Shown here: piece by piece, positions 10,776 through 59,806 of the stretch
Position numbering within the stretch: the first letter of the stretch is position 1
Layout: every line of letters starts with the position of its first letter
NCBI RefSeq assembly: GCF_009834535.1
Contig: NC_045696.1
Coordinates: 38,194,001-38,258,000 of the forward strand
Direction: 5' to 3'
From: Camelus ferus
Lineage: Eukaryota
DNA length: 64,000 bases
The notes under the pieces: generated by a model
Database searches by the model: none
What the model saw: only the letters and a program-made list of their open reading frames with translations
Told to the model about the DNA's origin: nothing
Translations under genes and position numbers: made by a program

Positions 10776-11842
10776 GCCTGAAACACTATGATATTTGCTC
10801 TATAAACAAGTTATTTTTTACTACTGTGTAGTGGTTCACATAATTTCAAGTATTTCATTTTAGTGCTGTAGTGAAAAGAACTATAAATTTAAAGTGTGTG
10901 TACATTTTAATTTTTTCTACTATATTTCAGGCCATATCACATTAAGTATTCTAGATATAACTTGCTTGAGGCTGTGCTTTATAGGAAAATCAGTTCTAAT
11001 TTAAGTTCAAAATAATGGATAGCATCTTTGTGCTTAAGGAGGATATTTCTCTGAAAAACTCAAGCATGTTTTGCACTCAGCAGTCTCTCCCATTAACACA
11101 CATAGAGAAATTGATTGTATCTCCAGTTGATGGAGTATTTGACATAGTAGGAAAAATGAAGAAATAGACCAAATGCTTTTCACCTGTGTATTAATTTATT
11201 TCTACCACTTTATCTTTTTTATTCCATTTCTCCAAAGTAGGTAAGCGGCATAATTTACTGCACTTATTTTACTAATGGAATTTATATGGGCGATAAGTTA
11301 CTTGGCAAAGCTGATAAAACAAATAGTAACCACAGAGGAAAAAGAAATCAGGTCATAAGCCTGTTAGATCAGTGTACTTTCTAAATGGAAAGGAGAATTT
11401 CAGGCAACTCTTAGAATATTAAAAATGCAAAGATACTGAATTTAAATATTGTTCCTCTACATTAATGTTTTGAAAACTTTTTGAAGCACTGAAACTTTAT
11501 CACTTATAAATATTGGTAATCTATTTTAAAAGAATAGTGCCTCCTTTTTGCTCCCTCCTCTTCTGAGACAGCCCACACTCTGTCTATGGAGTGTGTACCT
11601 TTTACTCTAATCTGAGCACCCAGCCCCCACACCTCGTGACCTTTCTCTTGCCTTCTGAAACAGCCTACACTCTATGCAGTATGTATGTCTCTACATAAAT
11701 CTACTTTTACTCAACTGTGGCTTGCTCTTTCCTATGGAAAGCCAAGGACCCACACTTGATGGGACATGTCCCAGTGATTCAAAGGAGACCTGGGACACAG
11801 CCCTCCTCACGCCCCACACACGTTTTTCCTTCATCATCTCTC

Positions 11843-11860: not shown

Positions 11861-12303
11861 ATTTACATAAAGAAATGGGGCTCAAAGGGCATAACCTCGA
11901 TCAGCCTATTGGGCTTCGGCTCCCCTCTCTTCAGAGGGTAGCAGGGGGTTTCTCCCACACCATGGGATTCAAGTAGCCCTTAGGTGGTGGCTGAAGCTGC
12001 CTGCAGGATCTAGCAGAGACCAGCTCTCTATCCGTGAAGGAGCCCACCAAGCCCAAGGCTTTTCTCTCCTTGATCTTTTCTCATTCTTTCCTCTATCGCT
12101 CTGTCTCTTCGGACTCGAGAAGATCCACCAAGGCAACCACTCTGACATCCAAATTAAGACCATGTGGCAAGTAATTAACAGCCTGACTGGATGTTTAACC
12201 ATGACTTTTAAGTCTTTTTGTCATTATAGACTGTTAAACTGCTGTTACAAAGGAGCTTCATCTTTAAGAAGATTCATCAGAAGTCAGTGGAAACAGTGGG
12301 TTA

Positions 12304-12406
12304 CAAACAGTCCCGTATCAGATGATGGCTATGCAAGGATTCCAGCCCATACCACCCTTGGACTCAAAAACAAAAGGCTATCCTGCCCCTGGGGCCCCTA
12401 GATAGG
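12304..12406 (+). pseudogene. Remnant of ERV env cytoplasmic tail
   Basis: Reads QTVPYQMMAMQGFQPIPP..., then LGPLDR (12389-12406) in a shifted frame. This resembles class I ERV env tails (LQM...YQP, GPLDR) and lies just upstream of the PPT. Confidence 0.55.
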
Positions 12407-13449
12407 TATTCTGAGATTTTTACTCCCTGATAGGCAGGGTCAATGCCCCTACTCAGCCTGGAAGTAGTTTCAGAAGACAGACCTTTGCACCTCTGCAACC
12501 CCATAAGATTATGGGAATAAAATCTCTGAGGGGAAAGGAGACAGGAAGGAAGGAGACAGGGCATAGCCATTCGAGGAATAACACAACAATTAACACCAGG
12601 ATGGCAAAAGATTTAACCCCTGGTAGGCCTTAAGACTCAAGATGGTGGGAGATTTGACTTCTAGTAGACCTTGAGCTTCATTGGACACTCATTGTAATAT
12701 ATTAGCATGGTAAATAACATGCCCACAGATGCCATGACAGTCCCAAGGCTAGCCACGGAAAGTCAAAGGGTGGGAAATGGCTGACTTCCTGGTAATCCCA
12801 GCCCCTTCCTCAGGGTAGTTAGACTGGTCCTTTCACTTATTAGCATATGTAGCTACCAAGCCCATAAAAACTGGCAACATGGTGCCTCGTGTCCACCTTT
12901 TTGCTCCCTTCTCTTTGGAGATGGCCCACACTCTGACTGTGGAGTGTGTACCTACTTTTACTCTAATCTGAGCACCAAACCCCGACACCTCATGGCCTTC
13001 TGAAACAGACTACACTCTATGCAGTGTGTCTCTCTCTAAATAAATCTACCTTTACTCAAAAAATAAAATAAATAAAAGAATAGGGAATTATTTGGCAAAC
13101 ATAAGGAAGAATTCCTTTCCCTGTATCATACAGCTTTTTAAATTAGCATTTAATAGTTATGATCTTGAGTAATAGTCATTTTTACTCTTTATTTTGTTTA
13201 TATGTATTATTTTTAAATTTGTAATGCCCATTTCAGTGTGCTTTTGCCTGTTTATTTTACTAATTTGTCCATATATAGTTAAACTCATTAGGCACTGTAT
13301 AAGCAGTCTTGATTAATGAGTAATAATGACAACTTCAGTATCTAATGAGAGGCCATATAGTTTGAGTCTTCAGTCCCTGCTTCTCCTCCATGTGGGCTAC
13401 TTTTTATTTTCCTGCAGTTTGGATCTAGCAGCTATTGAGTCTTAGTGTC

Positions 13450-17998: not shown

Positions 17999-18096
17999 AT
18001 AATGCTACATGCAGATTTAAAGATTTTTGTTAGTGCTTCAAAGGCAGAAAAGAAGGAAACTAATCTAAAAAAATCTACCTGGGTATAAAAAGAAAA

Positions 18097-21000
18097 AGAC
18101 ATTTGATTTCACATATAAAGAGCTTATAAATCATCACTCGGTTCTAACAATAAGCAAAAACCTGAAAAGACTGAAAAATCAGCTCTTCTTGGGTCCATAA
18201 GATAGGGGAGGACATGGAGCAAAGTGCTTGCTTCCAAGATTAGAGAGACAGACAGGCAAATATAAGGAGTTACTGCTTCCCAGAGTAGAGACTTTTAAGC
18301 AGAAACAGCCACAGGAACCAGTGCCTGTTGCATCATGTCCAGCAATCAAGAAAAAAAATTGTAAGGTGTACCAGAAGGCAAAACCCACAATTTTAAGAGA
18401 CATATCAAACATCAGAACCAGATATGGCAGGGACGCTCGAATTATCAGATTGGGGATTTAAAACAGCTATAATTACTATGCTAAGGTCTCTAATGGATTA
18501 ATTAGACAGCAAGCAAGAGCAGATGGGCAATGTAAGTAGAGAGATGGAAATCTTGATAATGAAAATAAATGCATATGTATGTATGTGTGTATGCTTGTGT
18601 ATAATTGTAATGAATGACAGCAATGATACATGAGGTGGGAAGGAAGTAGGATTATTTTGTTACTATAAGGTACAGTACCTACAAAGCTGTATAGCATTAT
18701 TTGCAAGTAGACATGCATTAGTTGTAAATGTATATTGCAAACTCAAGAGCAACCACTAAAAAAAGGTGAAAAAAGAAGTATAACTGATATACTGGTAAGA
18801 CAGCGAAAATGGAATGATATAAAAGCTAGCTAAAACCACAAAAGGCAGAAAAAGAAAAAAAGAGAAAAAGAAAAAAATGAGAACAAAGAACAAGGGCAAC
18901 AAGTAGAAGACAGTAATGAATATTGTACCAGCTATACCATTAATCACTCTCAATGTCAATGATCTAAATGGGTGAAATAAAATGCAGAGATTGTTAGAGT
19001 CAATCAAAAAAACAAGGCCCAGTAATATGTTCTCTAAAAGAAACCCACTTTAAATATAAAGAAACATATGGATTAAATGTAAATAGATGGAGAAAAATAT
19101 ACCATCCTAACAGGAATCAAGAAAACACATGAGTAGCTATATTAATTTCAGACAACAGGCTTCACAGCAAGACAAGTTATTAGGGATAAAGAAGGACATT
19201 ACAAAATGATGAAAGGGTCGGTTTTCCAAGAGACATAGCAGTCTCCCATGTGTATGTGCCTAACAACAGAACATCAAACTTGTTTAGGCAGAGACTGATA
19301 GAACTGCCAGGAGTTCCATAGAATAGTTGATACACTACTATATTTGGAGACTTCAACCCCTCTATCAGAAACAGACATATCCAACAGGCAGAAAATCAAT
19401 AAGCACATAGTTGAACTCAATAAAACTATCAGTCAACTGGATATAATTTTCATCTATAGACTACTTCATCCAAGAATAGCATCCGATACACATTCTTCTC
19501 AAGCTCATATGGAACATTCACCAAGATATACATGACTGTTGAGCTTAAAAAAAAAAAAAACCAAAAACTTACCAAATTTAAAGGATAAAAATAATCCATT
19601 GTGTCAGCTAAGGACACAATGCAAATCAGTAGTAGAAAGATAACTGGAAAATACCAAAATACATGGATATAACCAACACACTAACTACCAAGACTGAATC
19701 ATGAAGAAATAGAAACTCTAAACTGACCAGTCCTACTAAGAAGATTAAATCAGTAATCAACATTCCACCACTCCATCCCACAGAAAAGTCCAGGGCCAGA
19801 TGGCTTCACTTAATGAATTCTACCAAACATTTGAAGAATGATAGTACTAATCCTTCTCAAATCCTTCTGAAAAATAAGAGGAGAGAACACTTCCTAATTC
19901 TTTTTATGAGGCCAGCATTACCCTGATACCAAAATTAGACTAGGATACTACAAGAAAAGAAAATTACAGGCCAATATCTTTGATGAGCATAGATGCAAAA
20001 ATCCTCAACAAAGTATTAGCAAACCAAATTCAGCAGTGTATTAAAAGGATCGTACACCATGATCAAGTGGTCGTTACTCCAGGGGTGTAAGAATGGTTCA
20101 ACATTTGGAAATCAGTCAGTGTGATACATCACATTAACAGATGAAAGATAAAAATCATATTATTTCAATAGATGCAGAAAAAGTTTTTGACAGAATTCAA
20201 CCATTCATGATGAAAAGACTGGGGGTAGAGGGAATGTACCTCAGCATAGTAAAGACCATGTTAACAAGCTCATAGCTAACATCATACTCAATGGAGAGAA
20301 GCTGAAAGCCTTTCCTCTGAGATCAGAAACAAGACAAGGATGCCCACTCTTGCCGCTTTTACTCAACATAGTACTGAAATTCTAGGCCAGAGCAATTAGC
20401 AAGAAAAAGAAAGCAAAGACATCCAAATCAGAATGGGAGAAGTAAAATTATCTTTATTTACAGATAACATGATATTATATATAGAAAACCCTAAAGACCA
20501 CCAAAAAACTACTAGAACTAATAATTAATTCAGTAAAGTTGCAGGATACAAAATCAATATATAAAAACCAGCTTCATTTCTATGAAATAACATCAAACCA
20601 TCAGAAACAGAAATTAAGAAAACAATCTAATTTACAATTGCATCAAAAAGAATAAAATACCTAAGAATAAATGTAACCAAGGAGGTTAAAGATCTGTACA
20701 CTGAACACTGTAAGACACTGATGTATGAAATTGAAGAAGATACAAATAAATGGAAGGATATTCCATGCTTATGGATTTGAAAAATTAATATTGTTAAAAT
20801 GTCCATACTACCCAAAGCAATCTACAGGTTCTGTGTAATCCCTATGAAAATTCCAATGACATTTTTCGCAGAAATAGAAAAAAAATCCTAAAATTTCTGT
20901 GGAACCACAAAAGACCCTGAATAGCCAAAGCAATCTTGAGAAAAAAGACATGTCCAGAGGCATCACACTTCTTGATTTCAAATTATATTAAAATAAGACC

Positions 21001-22190
21001 TGTAACAAAACTTCTAGACGATAACATAAGGGAAGAGAACCCTGATGTCAGTATTGGCAGTAGTTTGTTTTTGATTTGACACCAAAAGCAAAGGCAACAA
21101 AGGCACAAACAAGTAAGACTACATAAAACTAAAAATCTGCCCAGCAAAGGAAACTATCAACCAGATGGAAAGGCAACCTATGGAATGGGAGAAAATATTT
21201 GTAAATATATCTAATATGGGTTAATATCAAAAATAGAAAACTCACATAACTCAATAGCAAAAAAACCCAACAAAACACAAAAACTAACTGAAAAACAAGC
21301 AGAAGAACTGAATAGACATTTTCTGAAGAAGATGTGGAAATGACCAATAATGAAGAGGTACTCTATATCACTAATTATCAAGGTATTGTAAATCAAAAAC
21401 GCAATGAACTGTCAGATCATACTTGTTAGAATGGCTATCATCAAAAAGATGAGATAACAAATGTTGACAAGGATGTGGGTAAAAGGGGACTCTTATACAC
21501 TATTGGTAGGAATGCACATTGGGGCAGCCATAGCCACCAATCACATTCTGGAGATTCCTCAAAAAACTGAAAATAAAACTTTTGTATGATCCATCATTCT
21601 CACTTCTTTTCTTTCATCCTGAAAGAAATGCTCCCTGTTCATTTCAGCATTATTTACAATAGCAAGATATGGAAACAATGCTAGTGTCCATCACTGATGA
21701 ATAGATAAAGAAGATGTGGTGTATATATACATAATGGAATATTATTTAGCCACGAGAAAGAAGGAAATCCTGCCACTTATGACAACATGGATGGATCTTG
21801 TGGGCATGATGTTAAGTGAAATAAACCAGACAGAGAAAGACAAATACTTCATGGTATCACTTATATGTGGAATCTAAATAAAAGCCAAACTTGAACAGAG
21901 TGAAGAAAAATGGTTGCTGGAGGCGGAAAGGTGGAGGAAATATAAACATTTAGCTATAACATGAATTATGCCTAAGTTTCTGATGTATAACATAGTGACT
22001 GTAGTAGATGACAGTGAATTGTGTAATTGAAGTTTGCTAAGAGAGTAGAACTTAGATATCATCACAAAAATATGTGAAGTTGTACATGTACATCAAATCA
22101 TTATGGCGTACATTTTAAATTACTTATAGTTTCGTCTATTACACCCCAATAAAGCTGAGAGGTAAATAAAACTAAAGAGAAAAAAAAGGA
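18097..22190 (+). mobile_element. Degenerate composite LINE-1: old L1M 5'UTR/ORF1/endonuclease pieces (~18097-19680) joined to an L1MA-like RT-to-3' end (~19680-22190)
   Basis: EN remnants (ITLNVN at ~18941; GDFNTPLS-like at ~19345). RT remnants (ccagatggcttcact, gaggccagcattaccctgatacc, agacaaggatgcccactct, tttacagataacatgat). caataaagctg plus A-rich tail at ~22147-22190. Confidence 0.88.
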
Positions 22191-22889
22191 AAGATACTGC
22201 AGGCAATGTAATCGACCTGTGTCATAACTGTGTGTTGCCCTTTACATAGACCTAGTGACAAACTACTTTCATTCAGGTATTGTAAATTTTTGTAACTCTG
22301 TCTCTATATCCCCAAATATGTGCCGTATTTATATATTATTTCTAGGATGTGTTTTATTGTCTTATATAAAAATACTAAGTGGGAAAAAGTTTGTATTTTT
22401 ATTACAAAGTTTTTCTTAGTGAAAGTCTTTTTATTTAGTTTTCAATTTTAATACTGAAATGTAATAAAATTTTAATCTATTTACTTCAAAGTGATAATTT
22501 TTTAAAATATTGGACTTTTTTGATTAATTATGGGAAGATAGCAATATCTGATGTTTTGATTTCTTAATGTAATTCTGTGCTTTACATTTGTATTGATTTA
22601 TTTGGACACTTGGGTGTATAAAATAGGAAATCAGAGGTAAATGGAAAGCCAGAGATTGCTAGCAAAATTCTGTAATTTTGATTTGAGTGAAATGAGATTT
22701 AAAATATTAAATGAATTGTCCACAGTCACTTACCAGTTTTTGGCAAAATGAATACTAGAAACTCTAAAACACACTGACACTTCCATACAAGATATAAAGT
22801 GGATTTTCATTGATTTTTTCCTAACAAGTGTGATTTTCCTATCAATTGGCATGAATATCACTTCTTTTTTTTTATATGTAGGTGCATTC

Positions 22890-23897
22890 TTTTTTTTTAA
22901 CATGTTTTATTGAGTTATATTCATTTTACAATGTTGTGTCAAATTCCAGTGTAGAGCACAATTTTTCAGTTATACATGAACATACATATATTCATTGTCA
23001 CATTTTTTTCACTGTGAGCTACCGCAAGATCTTGTATTTATTTCCCTGTGCTATACAGTATAATCTTGTTTAACTATTCTGCATATGCTTGTCAGTATCT
23101 ACAAATTTTGAACTCCCAGTCTGTCCCTTCCCACCCCTAGCCCCTTGGCAATCACAAGTTTGTATTCTATGAGTCTGTTTCTGTTTCGTATGTATGTATG
23201 TATGTATTATGTATTTATATTCCACATATGAGCAATCTCATATGGTGTTTTTCTTTCTCTTTCTGGCTTACTTCACTTAGAATGACATTCTCCAGGAACA
23301 TCCATGTTGCTGCAAATGGCATTATGTTGTCAGTTTTTATGGCTGAATAGTATTCCATTGTATAAATGTACTAATTCTTCTTTATCCAGTCATCTGTTGA
23401 TGGACACTTAGGCTGTTTCCATGTCTTGGCTATTGTAAATCGTGCTGCTCTGAACATTGTAGTTTTGATTTGCATTTCTCTGATAATTAGTGATACTGAG
23501 CATTTTTTCATGTACCTATTTATCCTTTGTATTTCTTCCTTGGAGAATTGCTTGTTTAGGTCTTCTGCCCATTTTTGGATTGGATTGTTTGTTTTTTTCT
23601 TATTAAGTCGTATGAGCTGCTTATATATTCTAGAGATCAAGCCTTTGTCAGTTTCATCATTTGCAAAAGTTTTCTCCCATTCCATAGGTTGTTGTTTTGT
23701 TTTACATATGGTTTCCTTTGCTGTGCAGAAGCTTGTAAGTTTAATTACGTTCCATTTGTTTATTCTTGCTTTTATTTCTATTGCTTGGGTAGACTGCCCT
23801 AGGAGAGCATTTTTGAGCTGTATGTGAGAGAATGTTTTGCCTGTATTTTCTTCTAGGAGTTTTTTTGTATCTTGTCTTATGCTTAAGTCTTTGAACA
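22890..23897 (-). mobile_element. 5'-truncated lineage-specific L1, same 3'UTR family as 54111-57180, with an internal ORF2 deletion
   Basis: Poly-T at 22890. Its reverse complement matches ~56620-57180. ORF 23371-23919(-) encodes ORF2 motifs [43 protein letters not shown]. Confidence 0.93.
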
Positions 23898-24929
23898 TCA
23901 CTTCTAAATGGAGGTACACAACTTTGGCAATGAAAATTTTATAAAAATATTGCTAAGAATTTCACAGTATTAAGGGGAAATAAGTGTCAATGATGATTAT
24001 TTCTCACGCTGCTTGCGTAAAATCTATCTCATGTTCTATACAGTGGAGCTAAATTCTATATGAAGAAACTCAAATATAATCTGGAGACTATATAATTAGA
24101 AACATTGTACTATGTAAATGATGCATTACCTGAAAGTTGCTTTAATCTCTGACTTTTTCCATAAACAGCATAGTCATATATCTTCTCTCTCATTTTCTCA
24201 AAATCCAAAATCACTTTTATTCAGTCATGGTTCTGGTGCATGAATAGCTATCGGGCAAAAACATTTAGGTAATTAATATTTAACCCAAATTTTGCTAATT
24301 TTTTGGAAGTCATTGGAAAATGATATGAAGAAGGTTAAGAAAGTTAAAAACACTTTTCCCAGGCACCACACAGACTAACTAGTTGGGCTGACTGACATTG
24401 GTCTTTTTGTGGCCTTCGGAAAATACTTCACTCTCACTGAGCCACAGTTTTCTTCTTGGTGAAGTTTTGATAACAGGTTTATTGCAATATAATATTGTTT
24501 GTCAAAATGTTCTGAAAATTGTGACATGCTTATGCAACTGCATTATTTCATTACTATTTCTCAGCAATGCTGGAACACCTTTAAACATTGGTATCAAGTC
24601 GTTTAATCATTCATTCTAGATTTACTGAACAAACTTTAATTGAATTCCAGAAGCTGTGACTCATGTTGGCATTAAAAAGATGAACCATTCTGCCTCCCTC
24701 TCAAGTCAAGAAGGAGAAAAAAGAATGGAAGAGGGAGGTGAGAGAAAAGAAGGGCAGGTGAGCCAGTTGTGTCCAGGTATCACTGTGATTGTGCCTGTGC
24801 ACACGTAAGCCTAGCTGCAGCATATCACAGTGTGCCTCGGTCTGCCAAGTTAAATAGTCTGATCCTAGGTTATCTAATTGAAATAGAGCAAAAAAGGGAA
24901 AGAAGTCTACTATTTTGTATAGAATATAC

Positions 24930-25402: not shown

Positions 25403-26850
25403 TTTTTTTTTCCATATGAGGTAAAATATGAATAGCATAAAACTTACTATATTAGCCATTTTAAGTGTATCATCCAGTGGTATTAAGTGCATTCATACTG
25501 TAGTGCAACTATCACCATCATTTATTTCTAGAACTTTTCATCTTGCAGAACTGAAACTCTTTACCCATTAAAAAATAATTCCCCATGATCCCTTCCCAGC
25601 AACCCCTGAAAGCCACTGTAATACTATCTTTCTTTTATCAAATCTCTCCTTTCCCTCCATGCCCCAGCCTTAGGTAACCACTGTTTTACTCTTTTGTTAC
25701 TATGAATTCAGCTTTTTTCCCGATATATACAAGTGAAATCATACACTATTTGCCTCTCTCTGTATGATTTATTTCACTTAGCATAATGACCTCCAAGTTT
25801 ATCCATGTTGTTGTAAACTGCAGGATTTCCTTCTTTTTAAAGGCTGAATAATATTCCATTGTGTATGTATATATCAGTATCTTTATCCATTTATCCATCA
25901 ACTGACATTTAGGCTATTTCCATATCTTGGCCATTGTATATAATGCTGCAGTGAAAAAGGGAAGGTTGATATCTATTAGAGATAGTGGTTTATTTCCTTG
26001 GGATGTGTACCCAGAAGTGTGATAGCTGTGTAGTATGATAGTTCTGTTTTCAATTTTTTGAGAAATTTCCATACTATTTTCCGTACTGATTTGCATTCCC
26101 ACTAACAATTTACAAAGTTTCCCTTTATAAGCATCCTTGTCAATACTTACTATCTTTTGACTTTCTGGTAATAGTCATCCTAATAGGTGTGAAGTGATAT
26201 TTCATTGGGGTTTTGATGTGCATTTCCTGCTAATGTGATTTTGAGCATCTTTTAATGTCTGCTGGCCATTTATATGTCTTCTCTGGAAAAATATTTATTC
26301 ATATTCTCTGCCTATTTTTTAATTGTATAATTTGATTTTTTTTGCTTTTGAGTTCTAAGAGTTCCTTATATATTTTAGATATTAACCCCATTGGATATAT
26401 GACTTGCAAATATTTTCTCCCATTCCATAGGTTGCCATTTCATTTTGTTGGTCTCCTTTGCTTTCTGGAAACCTTTGATATAGTCCCACTTGTTTATTTT
26501 TGCTTTTGTTGCCTGTGCTTTGGGTGTCATATCCAAAAAATCATTGCTGAGACCAGTTTTAAGGAGCATTTCACCTATGTTTTCTTCTAGGAATTTTACA
26601 ATTTCAAGTCTTACTTTTAAGTCTTTCATCTTTGAGTTGACTTTTATCTATGGTTCAAGATAAGGGTCTAATTTTATTCTTCTGCACGTGGATATCCAGT
26701 TTTTCTAAGATCATTTACTAAAGAGATTATCCTTTCCCCATTGTGTATTCATAGCGCCTTTGGGAAAAATCAGTTGACTGTACATATGTGGGTTTATATG
26801 CAGGCCCTCTGTTTGTTCCATTGATCTACGTGTCTCTATTTACGTGCAGT
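25403..26850 (-). mobile_element. 5'-truncated older L1 (L1MB-like terminal 3'UTR joined to L1MA-like ORF2 3' region)
   Basis: Poly-T at 25403. ORF 26375-26629(-) reads LEENIGEML..DFLDMTPKAQATKAKINKWDYIK..WEKIFASH; ORF 25914-26108(-) reads FTAALYTMAKIWK. Confidence 0.88.
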
Positions 26851-43945: not shown

Positions 43946-44156
43946 TCCAATTTGCAAACGATAGCTGGGGAGTTGGGACAGGTAAATCAAGAATTAGATA
44001 TGGGTTCTCAATTTTCTTCACTTGTGCAGATCCTGGGTATCTGAAATAGTAGCTGAAATAGGGAAATCAGGAGGTGGTACCTGTTCATGTGAAAATAATG
44101 AGCTCAGGTGCAGACATGTTAAGTTTGAGGAGTGTTTGAGGAGGTAATTGAGAAGA

Positions 44157-44532
44157 TGTGAATACTAGTTGACCTGTGATTTGTACTCAGACAATGGGAG
44201 GCTCCTTACCCCCTCCCTGTCCTTGGAATGTACAGTTCTGCCCACCATTTCTGCAGTGGGAGCAGATCGAGGGACAGAGTCTTGAGAGAGTAAGGTATTG
44301 TAGAGACCATCTGGACGGTATGCAGGACTGAACCCAGTTGAGAACTCTGTATAAAAATTTAAGATTCTGTCCAGTGGGTGTGGAGATTTTTCATCTTACA
44401 GCTGCCCAAGACAAACCTTGTATTTTAGTTCCTTTATGTATTAAGTGCTACCACCCACCAGTCTGTAATGGTCTGACTCTTCCTTGGTCTCTCCTCACCC
44501 CCTGTGTATAGGCGCCAGTTTGCAAACCAACA
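44157..44532 (+). mobile_element. Solo LTR, ERVL-type (MER54/MER74-like; name tentative)
   Basis: TG...CA ends, TATA-like gtataaaa at ~44349, and homology over its length to the reverse complement of 59070-59465. Confidence 0.75.
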
Positions 44533-50581: not shown

Positions 50582-53500
50582 GTTTGTTTATGTATCTAGA
50601 TCTATAGCTTGAAGTATTCTGATTACATTTAATCTGACCATGATGTTGGAAGTTATTTTACCTGTTTGTTTAGATCTATGGGAGGTGGTAGGGTGTGTTA
50701 CAGTCAGTGGAACATGGAAGTAACTATTAAAAACCTCTACTAGGTTGTTACTAAGTGACTTAGTAACTTACTTTACCTTTCTGGATCTTATTTATAAAAT
50801 AAAAGTTCTAAATGGAATGATTCTAAGAAGAAATGGCTTTCCCTTCTTTGCATGAAAACTATTGGAGAAAATCCCAAGCCTGTATTTACTGCTGTCTGAA
50901 CTTTTAAAAATATTGGTAAATCTCTGGACTCAGTTCACATGCCATTAACTTGAATTTTTACAGAGAAATTATCCTAAAAGAATAGCTACTTTCTTAGTAG
51001 GTTGATTGATCTCTTCCTTGTTTAATTTTTCGAAGTGATATATAAATGAAATCTTACACCTTTTATTGTGCAGTTGGAATAAAGATGATCTATTATACAC
51101 TGTAAAACCTATATGCTAATTGTTTTAAAACTAATATATCTTAAATTTGCTAAAAGGGTTATAAGGATAAATTATTCAAGGGCAAAAAAGTAACATTGAG
51201 CTTTTTAATCTTTGTACTCATTACTCTGACTTTTAATTCAGTGCTATCAACCTTGTCTTTAATATCTAATATCTTCTTTTAGAACACAATAACATTTTCT
51301 TATAACTTCCAAAAGAATGAGTAAAGGAAGCACTAATAAATTAAGAGACATTTCCAGAGAAACATATAATATGCTGGAAATTTACTTCTAAAGTTAATAG
51401 GAAAATTATATATAGTTTAACATATTCTATGCATTATATTGGTTATTAAGTATTATAAAACTTTGTTTTGATACCACCTGCAATTTATTTTCTGGTTTAA
51501 CCAATTTCTTATTTATTATGACATGAATAAATATATTTTGATGTGTACTCCTTAGATAAATAAGAGATGTTAATCTTGCTGTGTTTAAAACCTCGCCGTT
51601 AAATTAAAAATCTAAAAAATGTTCACATTTTATTGAAGTTAATGTTGACATGTTTTTTTTTCCTCCACTCTGGTAGGGACTAGATAACTTTTACTTAAAG
51701 CCAGCAGGAGGAGCTCTCACCTTGCTGGGTTCAATGTAATTAGTGTGCCTGAAAAACCTGATTTTGTGGGGGTTTTGTATATGAAACAGATGATAAAATT
51801 TAAACACTTATCACATGTAATGGTATTAAAAATCTAAAAAATCCTCAGTTTTATTTTGATATCAGTGCATCATTCACTTGTCAAGAATGCAAAATTGAAA
51901 TTTTACTGTCCTTAAGAATTTTTTTCAAAGTATGCTTGTAGTTTAATGAGGAAAATAAAGCAATTATATAAATATTGTTTCTTGAAGCTACTAATAAACA
52001 AAAAAAACCCTTTTCCTAAGGGTCTACACTGTTGTTTAAGTATATACACATTTTCCTTTTTTATTTTGAAATGAGTGTATTTCATAGTTTATAAATTATA
52101 AATACTAACAACCAAGCAGCCCCAATATGTTTTAGAAAAATATTACATCAATTAATCAATTTATTAATTTGTCAACCTATGAAAAAGAAATCTGTGTCGC
52201 TAGGCATCTTTGTATTAGGCATCTTTGAACACTCTACTTCAATAAACCTCTTGATTTAAATAGCATGATTTGTAGGTAGTGCCAGTAAAGTTTCTGTTGA
52301 AACCACTGGTGAGAAAACTAGGATAAAAACTTACGAAGGTTTGGAATCAGCAAAAGAAATAGTGATTTTTCTCTGCTTCTACAAAAATAAAATGATAAAA
52401 CAATGAAGTTTTATATTTAAATTTAAAAAGTAATAAGAAAACACTTAAAAATTGGAAAGGTTTAAAAAAATTTTTTTAATGGACATTCTAGCATCAGTCT
52501 CCTTGGTGGGACTCACTTTGTGATCTTAAGGAAAATTATGTAACCTCTCTCAGCCTCAGTTTTCTCTGCTGTAAATTGAGCATTTTAAAAAAGAAACAAC
52601 TTATAGGACAACATGGAGATTCCTTGAAGAAGAAAATATATAGAATGTCCTTTCTACAGTGACTGTGAATTTGTGTCATTACTTTATCAACTTACTAGGG
52701 AAATAATGATATATTCCAAAAATGTAAATGTGCTAAATGAGTAACATTAAACTTTTCAGTACCCCAAAGTAGATATCGGGATTGCATACCTCTGAATTCT
52801 TTTCAATAGTATATACACAAAATAAAATAACATTTATTTGACAATAAGATAAACTTATGGTTTTGAATATTTATTACAATGATATCTTCAGCTTTTTTCT
52901 CTAATATGTGAGATTATTTTTGTTAAACTGAATGAACCCAAATGTCATCAGGTGTTTATTTTGTGTATTTGCATGTGTGTGTTTTTGTGTGTACATATAT
53001 ATGTTAAGTCTGTATATATATTCATATATAGGTATATAATCCATTTGTTCTTTCTGTTACGTTTAGGTTTGTTAGCATTGTGTGTTAATATGGAGTAAAT
53101 GAAACTATAAAGAAAGCCTTCTGAAAGGCTCTAGCCTTTTATGTGTCTTTATATCTTTATGTGACATTAGCAACATTGAGAGCCATTACCTAGATATGTT
53201 AATTCTTTAAGAGTAGAAAATGATGTAGCCTAATTCAGTCATTTTGTCTTCATTTATTAACTGAAATATTTCAGTAAGAGAAATATCCCATCATTAACTA
53301 TTTCTTTATTTACGAGTAGTTCTTAGAGAAAAAGCAAAATAAATGTTTTATTCTTTTCAGATTATTTACCAGTTTTTAAAATATGGTTTCCTACTGTACT
53401 GCAAGTTATCAGTGGATATATTTTATCATTATGAATGCGTAGACTTAAGCATATTTGAAGGGTTTCAATCCCTTAGAGTCATTAACCTTGTGTATGGTCA

Positions 53501-54110
53501 AATTATCCATTTTTGGCCATTTGGAAGCCTGTGCCAGTTGGCTCCTGAATCCTTTTGACATGACACTGGTAAACATTGATATCTTCCCTGATTTCTGGTA
53601 TTAAATTTATAAAACACCACCAATGAAATAATCTTACAAAAAATAAAAATAAGCGGAACCTAGATCTATCTGGTCAAGCCACTGAATATATCTACCAATT
53701 TAAAGAAAATACAGGGAATGGAGGAATACGTTCAGTGATATCTCATGGTAAGGAAAATCTAGAATGTGGGATAAAACAACTTTTATGGGACAAATATTTC
53801 TTATCAAATTTGATTTCATGTAGTGAAAAAGATGACTGGCTCTTCATTAGGAAACAAATTAAAATAACTATGAGATACTATTGCACACCTGTTACAATGT
53901 CTTAAAAAAAAAAAAGCTGGACAGTACCAAGTACTGGTGAGGATGTGGAGCAACTGGAAAGCCGTACATTCTGCTAAAGGAAATGTAAAACTTCATAGCC
54001 ATTTTGAAATACAGTTTGACTTTTTCTTAAAACATAAGCCTTCTTTGTATAACCCAGTAATCATTATTTACCATGCAGAAATGAAAACATAGGTTCATAT
54101 AAAAATTTAT

Positions 54111-55460
54111 GAGAGAAGCAAGATGGCGGATTAGAAGGACACTTGTAGCTCACCCTCTCCCACAAATACACCAAAACTCACATCTACGGACCTACTCAAC
54201 CAACCAGAGCACCTGCCAAACTCCGACAGAACATCGCCCTCTTTGAAAGACAAAGACGCCAAATATCTGGTAGGAGAAAAGGGAAAAAGAAAGAAGAAAA
54301 AGCAAAACGGTGCGGGACCGGTCCCTGTGGGGAGAGAGCAGCAGAGGAGGACTGGAGCTCATTCACTGGGTCTCCCCCCTCCAATGGAGAGGCCAGTGGG
54401 ACAGAGGGGGAGCCTCTGAGGCTCAGATCTGCCCCGAGCACCCCTTGACCGACAGAACTGAGTTAAATGGGCACAAAGGGTCCCCGTGACACCCAGCGCA
54501 AGACTCGAGCCAGCAGCTGGGGGCTGGGCCAGGCTGCCTGAGCTAGGCGGAGGACTAGGGGGGCTGTACTGAGGCAGCCCCGGGGGACTGCAAGGTGCTG
54601 CACGCCGTGGCTGGGAGGGGATACGGACTGGAACAACCTTGGTCCCCCATAAATTGCAAAAAAAGCAAAGAAACATGGCTGGTGTGCCCTGTGGGGAGGG
54701 GTGCCATAGCCTTTGTCTCCTCAGGCCTGCGCCGCCATTACTGGCTCTTCTCCTGAGAAGAGAGGCGGGGCGCAGCCACAGCTGCCATCTCCTCCAGTGC
54801 GCAGCGCCCAGGCGGGGGCAGGGCCGAGACCTGAACCCGAACCCTGAGGCTCTGGAACCTCCTAGTCAGGACTGAGACTTGTTTACAGCCTGAGGCAGAT
54901 AGGATCTTTCTGCCCTGGTACCTCAGAGAACTTGTGCTGCCAAGACAAACAAGGAGCTGAGAGTTGGCATGAAGCAGGGGCGGGGCCGTTCTGTGGTCTT
55001 CCCTGAGCCCGCCTTTGGAGCGCTGACTGGAGGCAGAGCAGGCAGCTGCACAGAGCAGCGGAACTACGGGCTCCAGGAGAGGGCGGGTAGACACCCGCCT
55101 TGTGGCAGGAACGCAGCACCTGACCACCGTGCTGGGAAGGGGCAGGATCCGCCCACCTGCCTCCCCACCCCCCCAGAGTGCAGCATCTGACTGCAGCAGT
55201 AGGAGGGGGAGTGACCCGCCTGCCCACCGGGTAAGAGCTCAGCTCCAGACCCAGTATTAGGAGGGGGCGTGACTTGCTAGCCAATAGCCACTGGGAGCAG
55301 CACAGACGAGGGCGCCAACAGAGGGCCTCTGGAAACAGCAAGCTGAGTTCGTGAAACAGGGCAAAGACACAAAGACCTCTCAATAAGAGCGTTAAGGGCA
55401 CACCATCTCCAGGAGAACTAGATAACTGATAAGCCACAGTGCCAGAGAGATATAAGCAAT
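54111..55460 (+). promoter_or_regulatory. L1 5'UTR internal promoter (only CpG-rich segment in the window), with YY1-type motif
   Basis: AAGATGGCG lies about 10 nt from the 5' end, as in mammalian L1 promoters. GC and CpG content are high relative to the flanks. Confidence 0.75.
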
Positions 55461-56354
55461 ATGAAGAAGCAGAGGAACCACTCCCAATTAAAAGATCAAG
55501 AGAAATCCCCTGAAAGCACAATCAAGGAAATAGACATTGATGGCCTACTAGATCAAGATTTCAAAAGACTGATCAAAGTACTGAAGGAACTAAAAGAGAT
55601 AATGTTTAGAGATATAAAATATGTCAAAAATGAAATAGAAGCTATAAAGAAGAACCAAGTAAAATTAGTAAACTCATTTGCTGAGATGAGAGCTGACCTA
55701 AAAGCTGTGCAGAGCAGACTAGATAATGCAGAGGAACGAATAAGTGACCTAGAAGACAGGACAACAGAGAGCACCCAATCAGAACAACAATGAAAAACAA
55801 ATGAAAAACAATGAAAACAATGTAAGGGACCTATGGGATAATAAAAAGCATGCCAATCTACACATAATAGGGGTTCCAGAATGAGAAGAAAGAACAAAGG
55901 GGATTGAAAAGGTATTGGAAGAAATTATGACTGAAAAGTTCCCAAACCTAAAGAAGGAATCAGATATACAAGTACAGGAGGCTCAGAGGGTCCCAAACAG
56001 GAAGAACCCAAACAGACCCACACCAAGACATATCATAATCAAGATGGCCAGAGTCAAGGATAAAGAAATGATCCTAAAGGCAGAAAGGGAAAAACAAAGA
56101 GTGAGTTACAAGGGACCCCCCCCCCCCCATAAGGCTCTCAGCTGTTTTCTCTACAAATACTACAGGCCAGAAGGGACTGACAAGATAAATTCAAAGTCCT
56201 GAATGAAAAAAAGATGCAGCTTAGGATACTCTATCCAGCAAGGCTATCCTTTAAAATAGAAGGAGAGATAAAGAACTTCACAGATAAGCAAAAAGAATAA
56301 GAGTTTAGCAACACTAAACCCATGCTAAAAGAAATATTAACAGGTCTACTCTAA
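55461..56354 (+). pseudogene. L1 ORF1p, disrupted by stops and frameshifts
   Basis: MKKQRNHSQLKDQEK...RLDNAEERISDLED (coiled coil), then EEIMTEKFPNL..IQVQEAQRVPNRKNPNRPTPRHIIIKM (RRM region). Stop at 55791-55793, poly-C slip near 56116, terminal TAA at 56352-56354. Confidence 0.92.
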
Positions 56355-56497
56355 ATAGAAAAGAAGCAGGATACTACAAAAATGAGAAACTCATAACTGG
56401 AAAGGAGATAACTGTCATGAATTGCAAAAAGAATAAACACAAAATTGTAAAAGAAGACATCTAAATTATTAAGAGTGGGAGAGGGAAGCAAGGAAAG

Positions 56498-56868
56498 CCA
56501 CTGTGGAAAACAGTATGGAGATTCCTCAAAAGACTAGGAATAGACTTACCATATGACCCAGGAATGCTACTCCTGGGCATATATCCAGAAGGAACCCTAC
56601 TTCAAAATGACACCTGCACCCCAATGTTCATAGCAGCACTATTTACCATAGCCAAGACATGGAAGCAGCCTAAGATGTCCATCAACAGCTGACTGGATAA
56701 AGAAGATGTGGTATATTTATACAATGGAATACTATTCAGCCACAAAACCCGACAACCTAACACCATTTGCAACAACATGGATGTTCCTGGAGAATGTCAT
56801 TCTAAGTGAAGTAAGCCAGAAAGAGAAAGAAAAATACCATATGAGATCACTTATATGAGGAATCTAAA
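56498..56868 (+). pseudogene. L1 ORF2p C-terminal fragment only
   Basis: [71 protein letters not shown]... Confidence 0.9.
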
Positions 56869-58039
56869 AAAAAGCTAAACCAAAACAAAACATAAATACA
56901 AAACAGAAACAGACTCATAAACATAGAATACAAACTTGTGGTTGCCAAGGGGGCGGGGAGTGGGAAGGGACAGACTAAGGTTTTAAAATGCAGAATAGAT
57001 AAACAAGATTATACTATATAGCACAGGGAAATATATACAAGATCTTATGGTAGCTCACAGAGAAAAAAATGTGACAATGAATATATGTATGTTCACGTAT
57101 AACTGAAAAATTGTACTCTACACTGGAATTTGACACAACATTGTAAAATGACTATAACTCAATAAAAAATGTTAAAAAAATTATATGTGAAAGTTTATCA
57201 AGTAGAGAATTCCATGCAATATAACACTTTTCAGCAATAAAAAGGAACTGAGTATTCTGTTGTGTGTATTGATATATACAGTAACATATATGAATCTCAA
57301 ATGGATTATGCTATGTAAGAGAAACTAGGCTCACAAGACTTCATGTTGTATAATTTCATTCATGTAACATTTGGGGAACGGCAAAACCATAGAGACAGAA
57401 TTCACATTAGTAGTTGCCAGTTGTTGGGACAGAGAAGGAATTCGCCATAAAGAATCACAAAGGAAATTTTGGTGGTGATAGATGTATTCTGTAGCTTGAC
57501 TGTAATGGCTGTTACATGGATGTAGGAGCTGACCACAATTCCTAGAAATGTGCATTTAAAAAGGCTGAATTTTAAATTATACCTCAATAAATCTAACTTA
57601 AGAAATATAAAAGGGGAACCTATAGATTGAAAAAAATACTTAAAAACAAGACCTCACTATAATGTGTGGGATTTATTTGGATCTTGATTTTCTGTTAAAA
57701 TAAGTTGAGATCATGGGAATATTAAGCACTGATGGGTATTTGATTACATTAAATAATACATACTATTTATAGTAATGAATTAAGATATTTTAATTATATT
57801 TAAAAAGAGTATGTTAGATATACATGCTAAAACTTTTACATATCAAATGATATGATTACTAGAATTTACTTCAAAGAAATCTCACAGTGAAAGAGTAACA
57901 TGTATAGATGAAATAAGATTGGCTATAGTTGGTAATTACTAAAGCAGGGTGATTAGTATATGAGGTTTCATTGTACTGTTATCTCCACATTTTAAAATAT
58001 TTTTGAGAGAGAATTTTCCATAATAAAAATTAAATAATT

Positions 58040-58330
58040 ATGGCTCAGTTTTACAAATATATGCTTGGTGAATAGATTTTAACAGTATTGAAGGAATATT
58101 CTACAATGAGTAAGAATTTATTGCAGAAATTTAAGCATGGTTTAATGATTAAAAATCAATAAAATGTATCACAGGGATTCCAATAAGAAGAAAACACAGA
58201 ATCCTTACAATAGATGCTAAATGGCAGATGGCAAATAACATACTCCCAATGGCATTTTTAAAAAACTATTAAAAAAAAAAAAAAACCTGCACTTCCTTAA
58301 CCAAATGAAGGACTAAAACTCATGGTAAGA
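58040..58330 (+). mobile_element. Ancient L1M ORF2 (RT region) fragment
   Basis: gaatttattgcagaaatttaagcatggtttaat..aaaatcaataaaatgtatcac..caatagatgctaaa resembles the [22 protein letters not shown] coding region. Confidence 0.5.
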
Positions 58331-59069
58331 TATCAAAGCATTGTTTCTCAGAGGTCCATGACCTTACTGGCATCTGGGAGACGTGGAGGTAGTAGTTAAA
58401 ATAAAGATCTTCTGAATCATGGGCACTACATATTAACCTGCCAGAAGCACTACACCTCAAGTTGATCACCATTTAGCTCTATAGTCTCATTGATGTCCTC
58501 CTAGTTCCTCCAAATAATCTCCACTCCTGCTCCCTACTCCAGCAACTGAGGACTGGCTTAGTCATAGCTCAGTTAAGTTATAGAAAGTATTTTAAAATAA
58601 GTTTTTTCTTATCACATCTTTTTGAAGACCTCCTCATCTTAGGCCAGCCCAAATTGCATTTCCTTTGTGAAATATTCCCAGACTTGCCCTATCAGCCTTA
58701 GCCTAACTTAATTGCTGAGCTATTATATATAGTCTTTTAGAATTTAAGAGAAATGTTCTGATCATTTGTTTATATGTCTCTTCAACCAGTTTATGAATTA
58801 CTTTTGGTTAGGAAAAAAGATGCATGGTTTTTATTTTTGCTTTTGCCTCCCTTAGCAGTAAGTATACTAGTGCATACAATGATAATGTAATCTATGCTTT
58901 AAAGATAGTAGGTTTATTCAAAATGTGTTTTTTTTTTAAATTCTTTTCCAAGCATGTATAAGGGTATTTAATAACACAGAAAGAAAATAAAGAAGCCTGC
59001 TTTAATAGTTTCTCTTCCTTTAATGTGATATAAAAAGACTATATATGAAAATGGCAGAGAAAGCCATGA

Positions 59070-59465
59070 TGGTTATTTCATGGTTGGTTTGCAAACTGGC
59101 CCTGTACTCCTGGAAGGCAAGGAGAGTCTGAACAAAGAGGCAGATAACTCCAGATTGGAGGTTGGTAGGTACGGGAACTTACTTACCAAGCTGGTCTTGG
59201 GCAGCTGTAAGACGAATAGATCTCTGCACTTGCCCTTTAGAATCTTGAAGTTTATATAGAGTTTATATAGCCTCAACTGAATCTGGGTTCATTCATATGT
59301 ATGTCCAGGTGGTCTCAACAGTGCGTTCCTCTCTCAAGGCTCTCTCCTTGGAACAGCTCCCGCTGTGGGAATGGTGGGCAGAGCATACATTCTAAGGACA
59401 GGGGAGGAGCTGGAGAGCCTCCCATTCATTGCTTAGGTCCGTTCGTGGGTCAACTGGTGGTTACA
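59070..59465 (-). mobile_element. Solo LTR, same family as 44157-44532
   Basis: Reverse complement begins tgtaaccaccagttgaccc and shares gggaggctc, cctgtcctt.gaatgta, tcttacagctgcccaagac and gccagtttgcaaaccaac. Confidence 0.75.
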
Positions 59466-59806
59466 TCCTCCTCATTACCTTCTCTAACATTCATCAGTTT
59501 TAAAAGTCAGCTGTTAAAAATGACTTTATTAAGTTTTATTATTCAATTATCCATTTTATTTAACATTGCTAAACACAAATTTCATATTTTAAACTTAATT
59601 TATAAGCACCTCATACATTTTAGAATTACTTAATATCATTATATGCTAATATTTCATGTAGTCAAATTTTAAAGTTAGTAATGCAACTTATTAAAGCTAA
59701 TGCAATGAATAATAATAAGGGAGTTAACATTAATGATTTAAATTACTGATACATTTTTACATTAATTGAGAAGTTCATGCAATTTTTTTAATTTATTTAA
59801 TTCCAG

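What the first reader, a model, noticed from the sequence alone, without database searches (positions are those of the whole stretch)
54101..57184. Half-L1: intact promoter, ORF1 and 3' end but essentially no ORF2
Seen: a 3.07-kb TSD-flanked element with a YY1-type 5' motif, a 1.35-kb 5'UTR and full-span ORF1, then a clean junction into roughly the last 120 codons of ORF2. The endonuclease and RT domains are absent. Established: HAL1 elements are ORF1-only L1 derivatives that arose repeatedly in mammals and depend on ORF2p in trans. Inference: if the junction recurs at other loci, this is a lineage-specific HAL1 family parasitising the L1 whose 3'UTR also appears at 22890-23897.
Basis: partly seen in the sequence, partly recalled or inferred. 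Interest (0 to 1): 0.7.

Follow-up and report, generated by a model that had tools for sequence, protein, structure and literature searches.

The report
Dead L1 copy missing its ORF2
This is a real but long-dead LINE-1 jumping gene that kept both ends and its first gene and lost almost all of its copying enzyme; whether it is a one-off accident or one copy of a parasitic "half-L1" family, a kind already known in mammals, is still open.

Summary
The anatomy is confirmed. At 54112-57180 (+) there is a true L1 5' end, a 1.34-kb 5'UTR, a full-span ORF1, about 140 bases of inter-ORF spacer, then a jump into the last 124 codons of ORF2 and the 3'UTR; endonuclease and RT are absent. Two corrections: ORF1 is dead (3 frameshifts, 3 stops) and the promoter is CpG-decayed (o/e 0.38), not shown intact. 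The target-site duplication is imperfect and statistically weak.

Recurrence of the junction, the decisive test, stayed open: no genome is held, no read count was obtained, and the collection scans were blind to this L1 family. Indirect evidence leans slightly to a one-off deletion. The ORF2 remnant is no more decayed than ORF1, and the only sister copy in the window has a different internal deletion. The break position, which spares all of ORF1, favours a family.

Odds: one-off 0.5, HAL1-type family 0.4, splicing 0.05, misassembly 0.05. Unchecked notes of this scan report roughly 3.1-kb HAL1-type families on other DNA (this genome and another), described with different insides. Every reading is a known kind.

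The parts
54101..54111 (+). Left copy of probable target-site duplication (A-rich, L1-endonuclease-like site)
   Evidence: imperfect match to 57176-57187; 38 of 5000 random and 183 of 3000 A5-containing flanks score as high
54112..55451 (+). L1 5'UTR, 1.34 kb, complete in span, CpG-decayed
   Evidence: GC 59%, CpG o/e 0.38, TpG 1.37; no other copy in the window; a 31-nt two-copy repeat at 55194/55252
54120..54129 (+). YY1-type motif at the L1 5' end (label recalled)
   Evidence: only occurrence in the window on either strand
55452..56354 (+). ORF1, full span, dead: 3 frameshifts, 3 stops
   Evidence: first frameshift lies in a 10-bp tandem repeat 55782-55822, second in a C run
56355..56495 (+). 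First ~140 bases of the inter-ORF spacer; no ORF2 start
   Evidence: pig spacers are mostly 390-529 bp (PMC6501411), so the left break probably lies inside the spacer (inference)
56496..56867 (+). Last 124 codons of ORF2 (from human residue ~1152); one +1 frameshift near 56675 and one stop just before the end; the junction is fixed to within about 2 bases
56868..57180 (+). Lineage-specific L1 3'UTR and short A tail
   Evidence: 28 of 291 aligned bases differ from the sister copy
57176..57187 (+). Right copy of probable target-site duplication (overlaps the A tail)
22866..23891 (-). Sister copy of the same L1 lineage: 5'-truncated, 14-bp TSD with 1 mismatch (22852-22865 / 23892-23905), own in-frame loss of 84 ORF2 codons at a 5-base overlap near 23455-23459

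Best explanation
A full-length L1 of a camelid-type lineage was inserted into the tail of a much older L1 roughly 9-20 million years ago and lost about 3.7-3.8 kb (most of the spacer, endonuclease, RT) in a single event at this locus. Most likely the reverse transcriptase copied ~680 bases from the poly(A) end, jumped to the spacer of the same or another L1-type RNA and ran on to the 5' end; a later DNA-repair deletion gives the same picture. The copy could not move on its own and has decayed neutrally since. Shown: anatomy, dead ORF1, equal decay of ORF1 and remnant. Inferred: uniqueness, mechanism, deleted length, age, host.
For: Breaks are equally dense in ORF1 (6 in 300 codons) and the ORF2 remnant (2 in 124; Fisher p = 1.0). 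In 110 of the 124 remnant codons, 9 of 74 columns conserved in the relatives differ; by eye 6 of these 9 are shared with P0002 or the sister, leaving about 3 of 74 private, against 9 of 200 private changes in ORF1. So the remnant did not drift for long as non-coding tail of a separate lineage. Element and sister differ evenly: 22 of 245 bases in ORF2 end, 28 of 291 in the 3'UTR. The sister has a different internal deletion, so 2 of 2 copies of this lineage in the window are internally deleted. Template switching during L1 integration is reported (PMC11702581, passages).
Against: The left break spares all of ORF1 and its stop while both enzyme domains are gone, which a random deletion would do only in a minority of cases (my rough estimate 15%). 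A family with hundreds of copies would be met far more often than a singleton. The decay tests have little power and do not exclude a short-lived family. The two measures of private change were made by different methods. Unchecked notes suggest camelid L1s spawned ORF1-only families more than once. The sister's deletion could itself be a subfamily trait. Uniqueness was not tested.
Confidence: 0.5

Rival explanations
1. One decayed copy of an amplified HAL1-type family: a master copy with this deletion was transcribed from the L1 promoter, made ORF1p for its own RNA, borrowed ORF2p from full L1s and spread.
For: All HAL1 parts are present: both ends, full-span ORF1, no endonuclease or RT. HAL1s arose repeatedly in mammals (PMC5753468, passage). 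Rat HAL1 is described as derived by deletion of ORF2, with its 5' 2600 bases 98% identical to active L1 (PMC2241872, passage), so young families need not look diverged. Unchecked notes describe ~3.1-kb HAL1-type families in this genome (e1-7801562) and in another genome (e1-7856012).
Against: No second copy was seen anywhere, though none of these searches had power. No excess decay of the remnant. The noted families are described with foreign or ancient tails, and pig HAL1_SSc has, by eye, unrelated sequence after the spacer, unlike this clean sense-strand join.
Confidence: 0.4
2. The junction is a splice joint: an L1 RNA was spliced from the spacer to the end of ORF2 and then retrotransposed (SpIRE-like), so it could recur without any master element.
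For: The right break falls where a 3' splice-site dinucleotide would stand if the parental Gln codon allows it (inference). Spliced L1 insertions exist and are mostly dead ends (PMC5860796, passages).
Against: The parental sequence after the left break is unknown, so no donor is shown. The three SpIRE classes in the passages read lie in the 5'UTR or 5'UTR/ORF1. The codons upstream of the right break in P0002 do not suggest a pyrimidine tract (inference).
Confidence: 0.05
3. Assembly misjoin of the two ends of a full-length L1.
For: Long repeats are hard to assemble; no read evidence across the junction was obtained. The listed runs hold only 0.65-0.72 of the sampled words of 52500-58500.
Against: No N in the window. 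No long homology is apparent at the join that would let an assembler collapse it (inference; the parental spacer is not known).
Confidence: 0.05

Closest known systems
HAL1 ('half-L1') non-autonomous L1 derivatives (Smit 1999; Bao & Jurka 2010: neither seen, known through passages of PMC5753468, PMC2241872, PMC4859970)
   Same: L1 5'UTR and ORF1 kept, no ORF2p, poly(A) end and TSD; rat RNHAL1 is described as an ORF2 deletion product.
   Different: HAL1s are multi-copy families; only one copy is shown here. This copy keeps 124 sense codons of ORF2 and the parent's 3'UTR, whereas pig HAL1_SSc carries other sequence after the spacer (by eye).
Internally deleted or template-switched L1 insertions (PMC11702581 passages; further cases recalled)
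   Same: Both ends and a TSD kept, interior skipped, dead afterwards; the sister copy in this window is an example at smaller scale.
   Different: The skip here is about 3.7 kb with at most ~2 bases of overlap as far as can be judged; the internal deletions in the tumour study read are short (median 14.5 bp) and tied to inversions.
SpIREs, spliced integrated L1s (PMC5860796, passages)
   Same: Full 5' and 3' ends with a precise internal gap; evolutionary dead ends.
   Different: Described classes remove 5'UTR or 5'UTR/ORF1 sequence; no donor site is shown here.
Cetartiodactyl L1 (pig L1A-L1D, PMC6501411)
   Same: Similar 5' start, ~900-bp ORF1, long spacer, ~300-bp 3'UTR.
   Different: ORF1 N-terminal part is only 48-50% identical to the pig-type proteins against 78-89% to three unnamed NCBI/Logan proteins: another lineage.

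Membership tests
HAL1 | L1-derived 5'UTR and full-span ORF1 | tested here: met
HAL1 | No endonuclease or RT coding sequence | tested here: met
   Only ~140 bases lie between the ORF1 stop and ORF2 residue ~1152
HAL1 | Inserted by target-primed reverse transcription (A tail, TSD) | tested here: inconclusive
   Short A tail; imperfect TSD, 38 of 5000 and 183 of 3000 controls reach its score; flanks weakly collinear with one older L1 tail (E 0.008-0.6)
HAL1 | Same junction at many independent loci | tested here: inconclusive
   No genome, no read data; blank scans lack power because a family control was also blank
HAL1 | ORF1 under purifying selection after loss of ORF2 (criterion recalled from Bao & Jurka 2010) | not testable with these tools
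   Needs several junction-bearing copies. The one-copy proxy, excess decay of the ORF2 remnant over ORF1, was not seen
HAL1 | Mobilised by ORF2p in trans | not testable with these tools
   Needs a cell assay
SpIRE | Junction flanked by splice donor and acceptor in the parent | tested here: inconclusive
   Acceptor side possible; parental spacer beyond the break not available (searches gave none)
Autonomous L1 | Intact ORF1 and ORF2 | tested here: not met

The most novel reading that the evidence does not exclude
A camelid HAL1-type family, not found in the papers searched, made by a clean spacer-to-ORF2-tail deletion and distinct from the chimeric ~3.1-kb families noted elsewhere in this scan. 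In the boldest form it shares its head with those families, so that the spacer is a repeated breakage or template-switch point from which ORF1-only parasites arose several times in one lineage, a natural series for testing why ORF1-in-cis RNAs are good ORF2p substrates.
Probability: 0.4. Interest if true: 0.4.

Novelty: already known. Interest (0 to 1): 0.22.

Why it matters
As a one-off it is an ordinary fossil with no consequence beyond repeat annotation. As a family it would add one more independent origin of HAL1, of a simple deletion type, in a lineage whose repeats are thinly curated, and many copies would allow a direct test of selection on ORF1 after ORF2 loss. Neither reading opens a new mechanism.

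Tried and rejected
Whole-genome search: no genome held. Junction 28-mer in metagenome contigs: 0 hits; rejected as evidence because the family's 3'UTR 27-mer also gave 0 in viral, genome and metagenome contigs. Loci encoding ORF1 relatives: 0 of 12 candidates in viral contigs and 0 of 184 in genome contigs confirmed. Sequencing runs: 20 of 23 listed runs, from 3 coded organisms and 7 studies, hold 0.65-0.72 of the words of 52500-58500; this does not resolve the junction, and laying reads returned no data. Protein search with the frame that crosses the junction: of 120 listed hits I read 9; none has spacer-derived residues in front, but the database holds few proteins of this lineage (5 hits). 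The sister copy cannot test the junction because its own deletion removes that part of ORF2. Earlier-findings look-ups by sequence were blank. Pig consensus files gave no spacer close enough to place the left break. Rejected: a functional or domesticated ORF1 gene (6 breaks); an 'intact' promoter (CpG decay); reading the ancient L1 tail on either side as part of the element (it lies outside the TSD). Literature: no description of a camelid HAL1 in searches; searches returned nothing; Bao & Jurka 2010 is not held; Repbase and Dfam were not available; supplements of PMC8605555 were not opened and may list such a family.

Full report
What is there. The element runs from 54112 to about 57180 on the + strand. 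It opens with a YY1-type motif (label recalled) at 54120 that occurs only once in the window and resembles by eye the first bases of pig L1 consensus sequences (PMC6501411 supplement 1, part 1), so the 5' end is complete. The 5'UTR is 1340 bases, 59% GC, with CpG o/e 0.38 and TpG 1.37: complete in span but decayed. Promoter activity was not tested.

ORF1 covers 55452-56354. A frameshift-aware alignment to the intact 300-residue relative P0123 matches 296 codons, 242 identical, with 3 frameshifts, 3 stops and one lost codon. Pfam and PDB confirm L1 ORF1p. About 140 bases of spacer follow, with no ORF2 start in any frame (compared by eye). The sequence then enters ORF2 at human residue 1151/1152 of 1275; P0002, 90% identical over this part, shows what the parent encoded upstream. 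The remnant has one frameshift and one late stop. Taking pig lengths as a guide (spacer mostly 390-529 bp, ORF2 about 3800 bp; passages), about 3.7-3.8 kb is missing; this is an inference, the parent's spacer was not seen.

Boundaries. The likely TSD is 54101-54111 / 57176-57187, one base different in length. Its alignment score is reached by 38 of 5000 random flanks and 183 of 3000 flanks that hold five As, so it is plausible, not strong. The two flanks give weak collinear matches to L1 ORF2-end and tail sequence (E 0.008-0.6), which fits insertion into an older L1.

Host and age. The ORF1 N-terminal part is 78-89% identical to three unnamed proteins and 48-50% to pig-type ones. An unchecked note calls this genome camel (e1-7801668), and the runs that hold the locus are about 2,000 million letters. 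Element and sister differ at 22 of 245 ORF2 bases and 28 of 291 3'UTR bases, with 4, 6 and 8 changes at the three codon positions of 64 codons. About 4.5% per branch gives roughly 9 million years at the rate quoted in PMC8605555 or about 20 at a slower rate (recalled).

Does the junction recur? This is the question that separates a HAL1 family from an accident, and it remains open. No genome is held. The read-laying run returned no data. The junction pattern is absent from metagenome contigs, but so is a 3'UTR pattern shared by both copies, in three collections, so the blank means nothing. ORF1-based locus searches confirmed 0 of 12 and 0 of 184 candidates. Sequence look-ups among earlier findings were blank.

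Indirect evidence for a one-off event. If a HAL1 lineage had lived long, the ORF2 remnant would have drifted while ORF1 stayed under selection. It has not: 2 breaks in 124 codons against 6 in 300 (p = 1.0). In the 110 remnant codons examined, 9 of 74 conserved columns differ, of which 6 are shared by eye with P0002 or the sister; about 3 of 74 private changes compare with 9 of 200 in ORF1 (different method). The sister copy at 22866-23891 has a clean 14-bp TSD and its own in-frame loss of 84 ORF2 codons at a 5-base overlap, so both copies of this lineage in the window are internally deleted, at different places. These tests have low power and do not exclude a short-lived family.

Indirect evidence for a family. 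The left break spares all of ORF1 and its stop, and both enzyme domains are gone; I estimate that a random deletion of this size does so about 15% of the time. A family of hundreds of copies would also be met more often than a singleton. HAL1s arose independently several times (PMC5753468, passage), and rat HAL1 is described as an ORF2 deletion product 98% identical to active L1 in its 5' part (PMC2241872, passage). Unchecked notes of this scan describe a repeated 3.1-kb half-L1 in this genome (e1-7801562) and, in other genomes, a 3.06-kb one with about a thousand copies, a cTAGE-bearing one and an ORF2-less L1 fused to NSUN6 exons. The first two are described as chimeric, with older repeat sequence or an ancient tail inside; this element has the parent's own sense ORF2 end and 3'UTR, so it is probably not the same family. 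I could not check them.

Mechanism. Most likely (0.5): one event at this locus. Reverse transcription started at the poly(A), copied about 680 bases, jumped to the spacer of the same or another L1-type RNA and finished at the 5' end; template switches at integration are reported (PMC11702581, passages). A repair deletion after insertion looks the same and is counted here. Second (0.4): a master with this deletion amplified as HAL1, supplying ORF1p in cis and taking ORF2p in trans. Minor: splicing (0.05; PMC5860796, passages) and misassembly (0.05). In every reading this copy is now dead.

Comparison with what is known. It is built like HAL1: ORF1 span and absence of ORF2p are met. Membership needs multiple loci and selection on ORF1, neither shown. 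Searches turned up no paper on a camelid HAL1; PMC8605555 has 0 occurrences of 'orf1' or 'orf2' in its main text (12 of 23 passages shown, supplements not opened). Bao & Jurka 2010 is not held, and Repbase and Dfam could not be consulted, so an existing entry is possible. Also read as passages only: PMC13756887, PMC6726744, PMC4859970, 10.1101/2024.08.27.596794, PMC4161310.

Verdict. Real feature, overstated in 'intact promoter'; dead copy; family status undecided; known kind either way. Interest 0.22.

Noticed in passing
window 22866-23891 (-): Sister L1 copy with a 14-bp TSD and an in-frame loss of 84 ORF2 codons at a 5-base overlap; a 193-codon stop-free frame (23374-23952) crosses the join, and the A tail is interrupted by a short extra piece.
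   Followed up: partly
P0002 (UniRef100_A0A8C3H5B0): A protein labelled painted turtle is 90% identical to this mammalian L1 ORF2 tail, well above the other 119 listed hits (at most 82%); contamination of that annotation or assembly is the likely cause, horizontal transfer was not tested (one search found nothing on it).
   Followed up: partly
window about 18000-21890 (+): Older, heavily decayed L1 with ORF2 pieces over about 3 kb, 76% to the element's ORF2 end.
   Followed up: no
window 25727-26626 (-): Another old L1 ORF2 3' fragment, 68% to the element.
   Followed up: no
window 53800-54111 and 57181-57600: The flanks look like the ORF2 end and 3'UTR of one ancient L1 into which the element inserted; matches are weak.
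   Followed up: partly
window 11540-11714 and 12893-13059; 44126-44531 and 59083-59496: Two unexplained repeat pairs: a direct pair at 82% (possibly LTR-like ends of a 1.5-kb element; a 168-codon stop-free frame at 11895-12398 lies between them) and an inverted pair at 69%.
   Followed up: no
window 55782-55822 and about 56115-56128: Two ORF1 frameshifts sit in a 10-bp tandem repeat and in a C run, typical slippage sites; the C run could also be a sequencing error.
   Followed up: no
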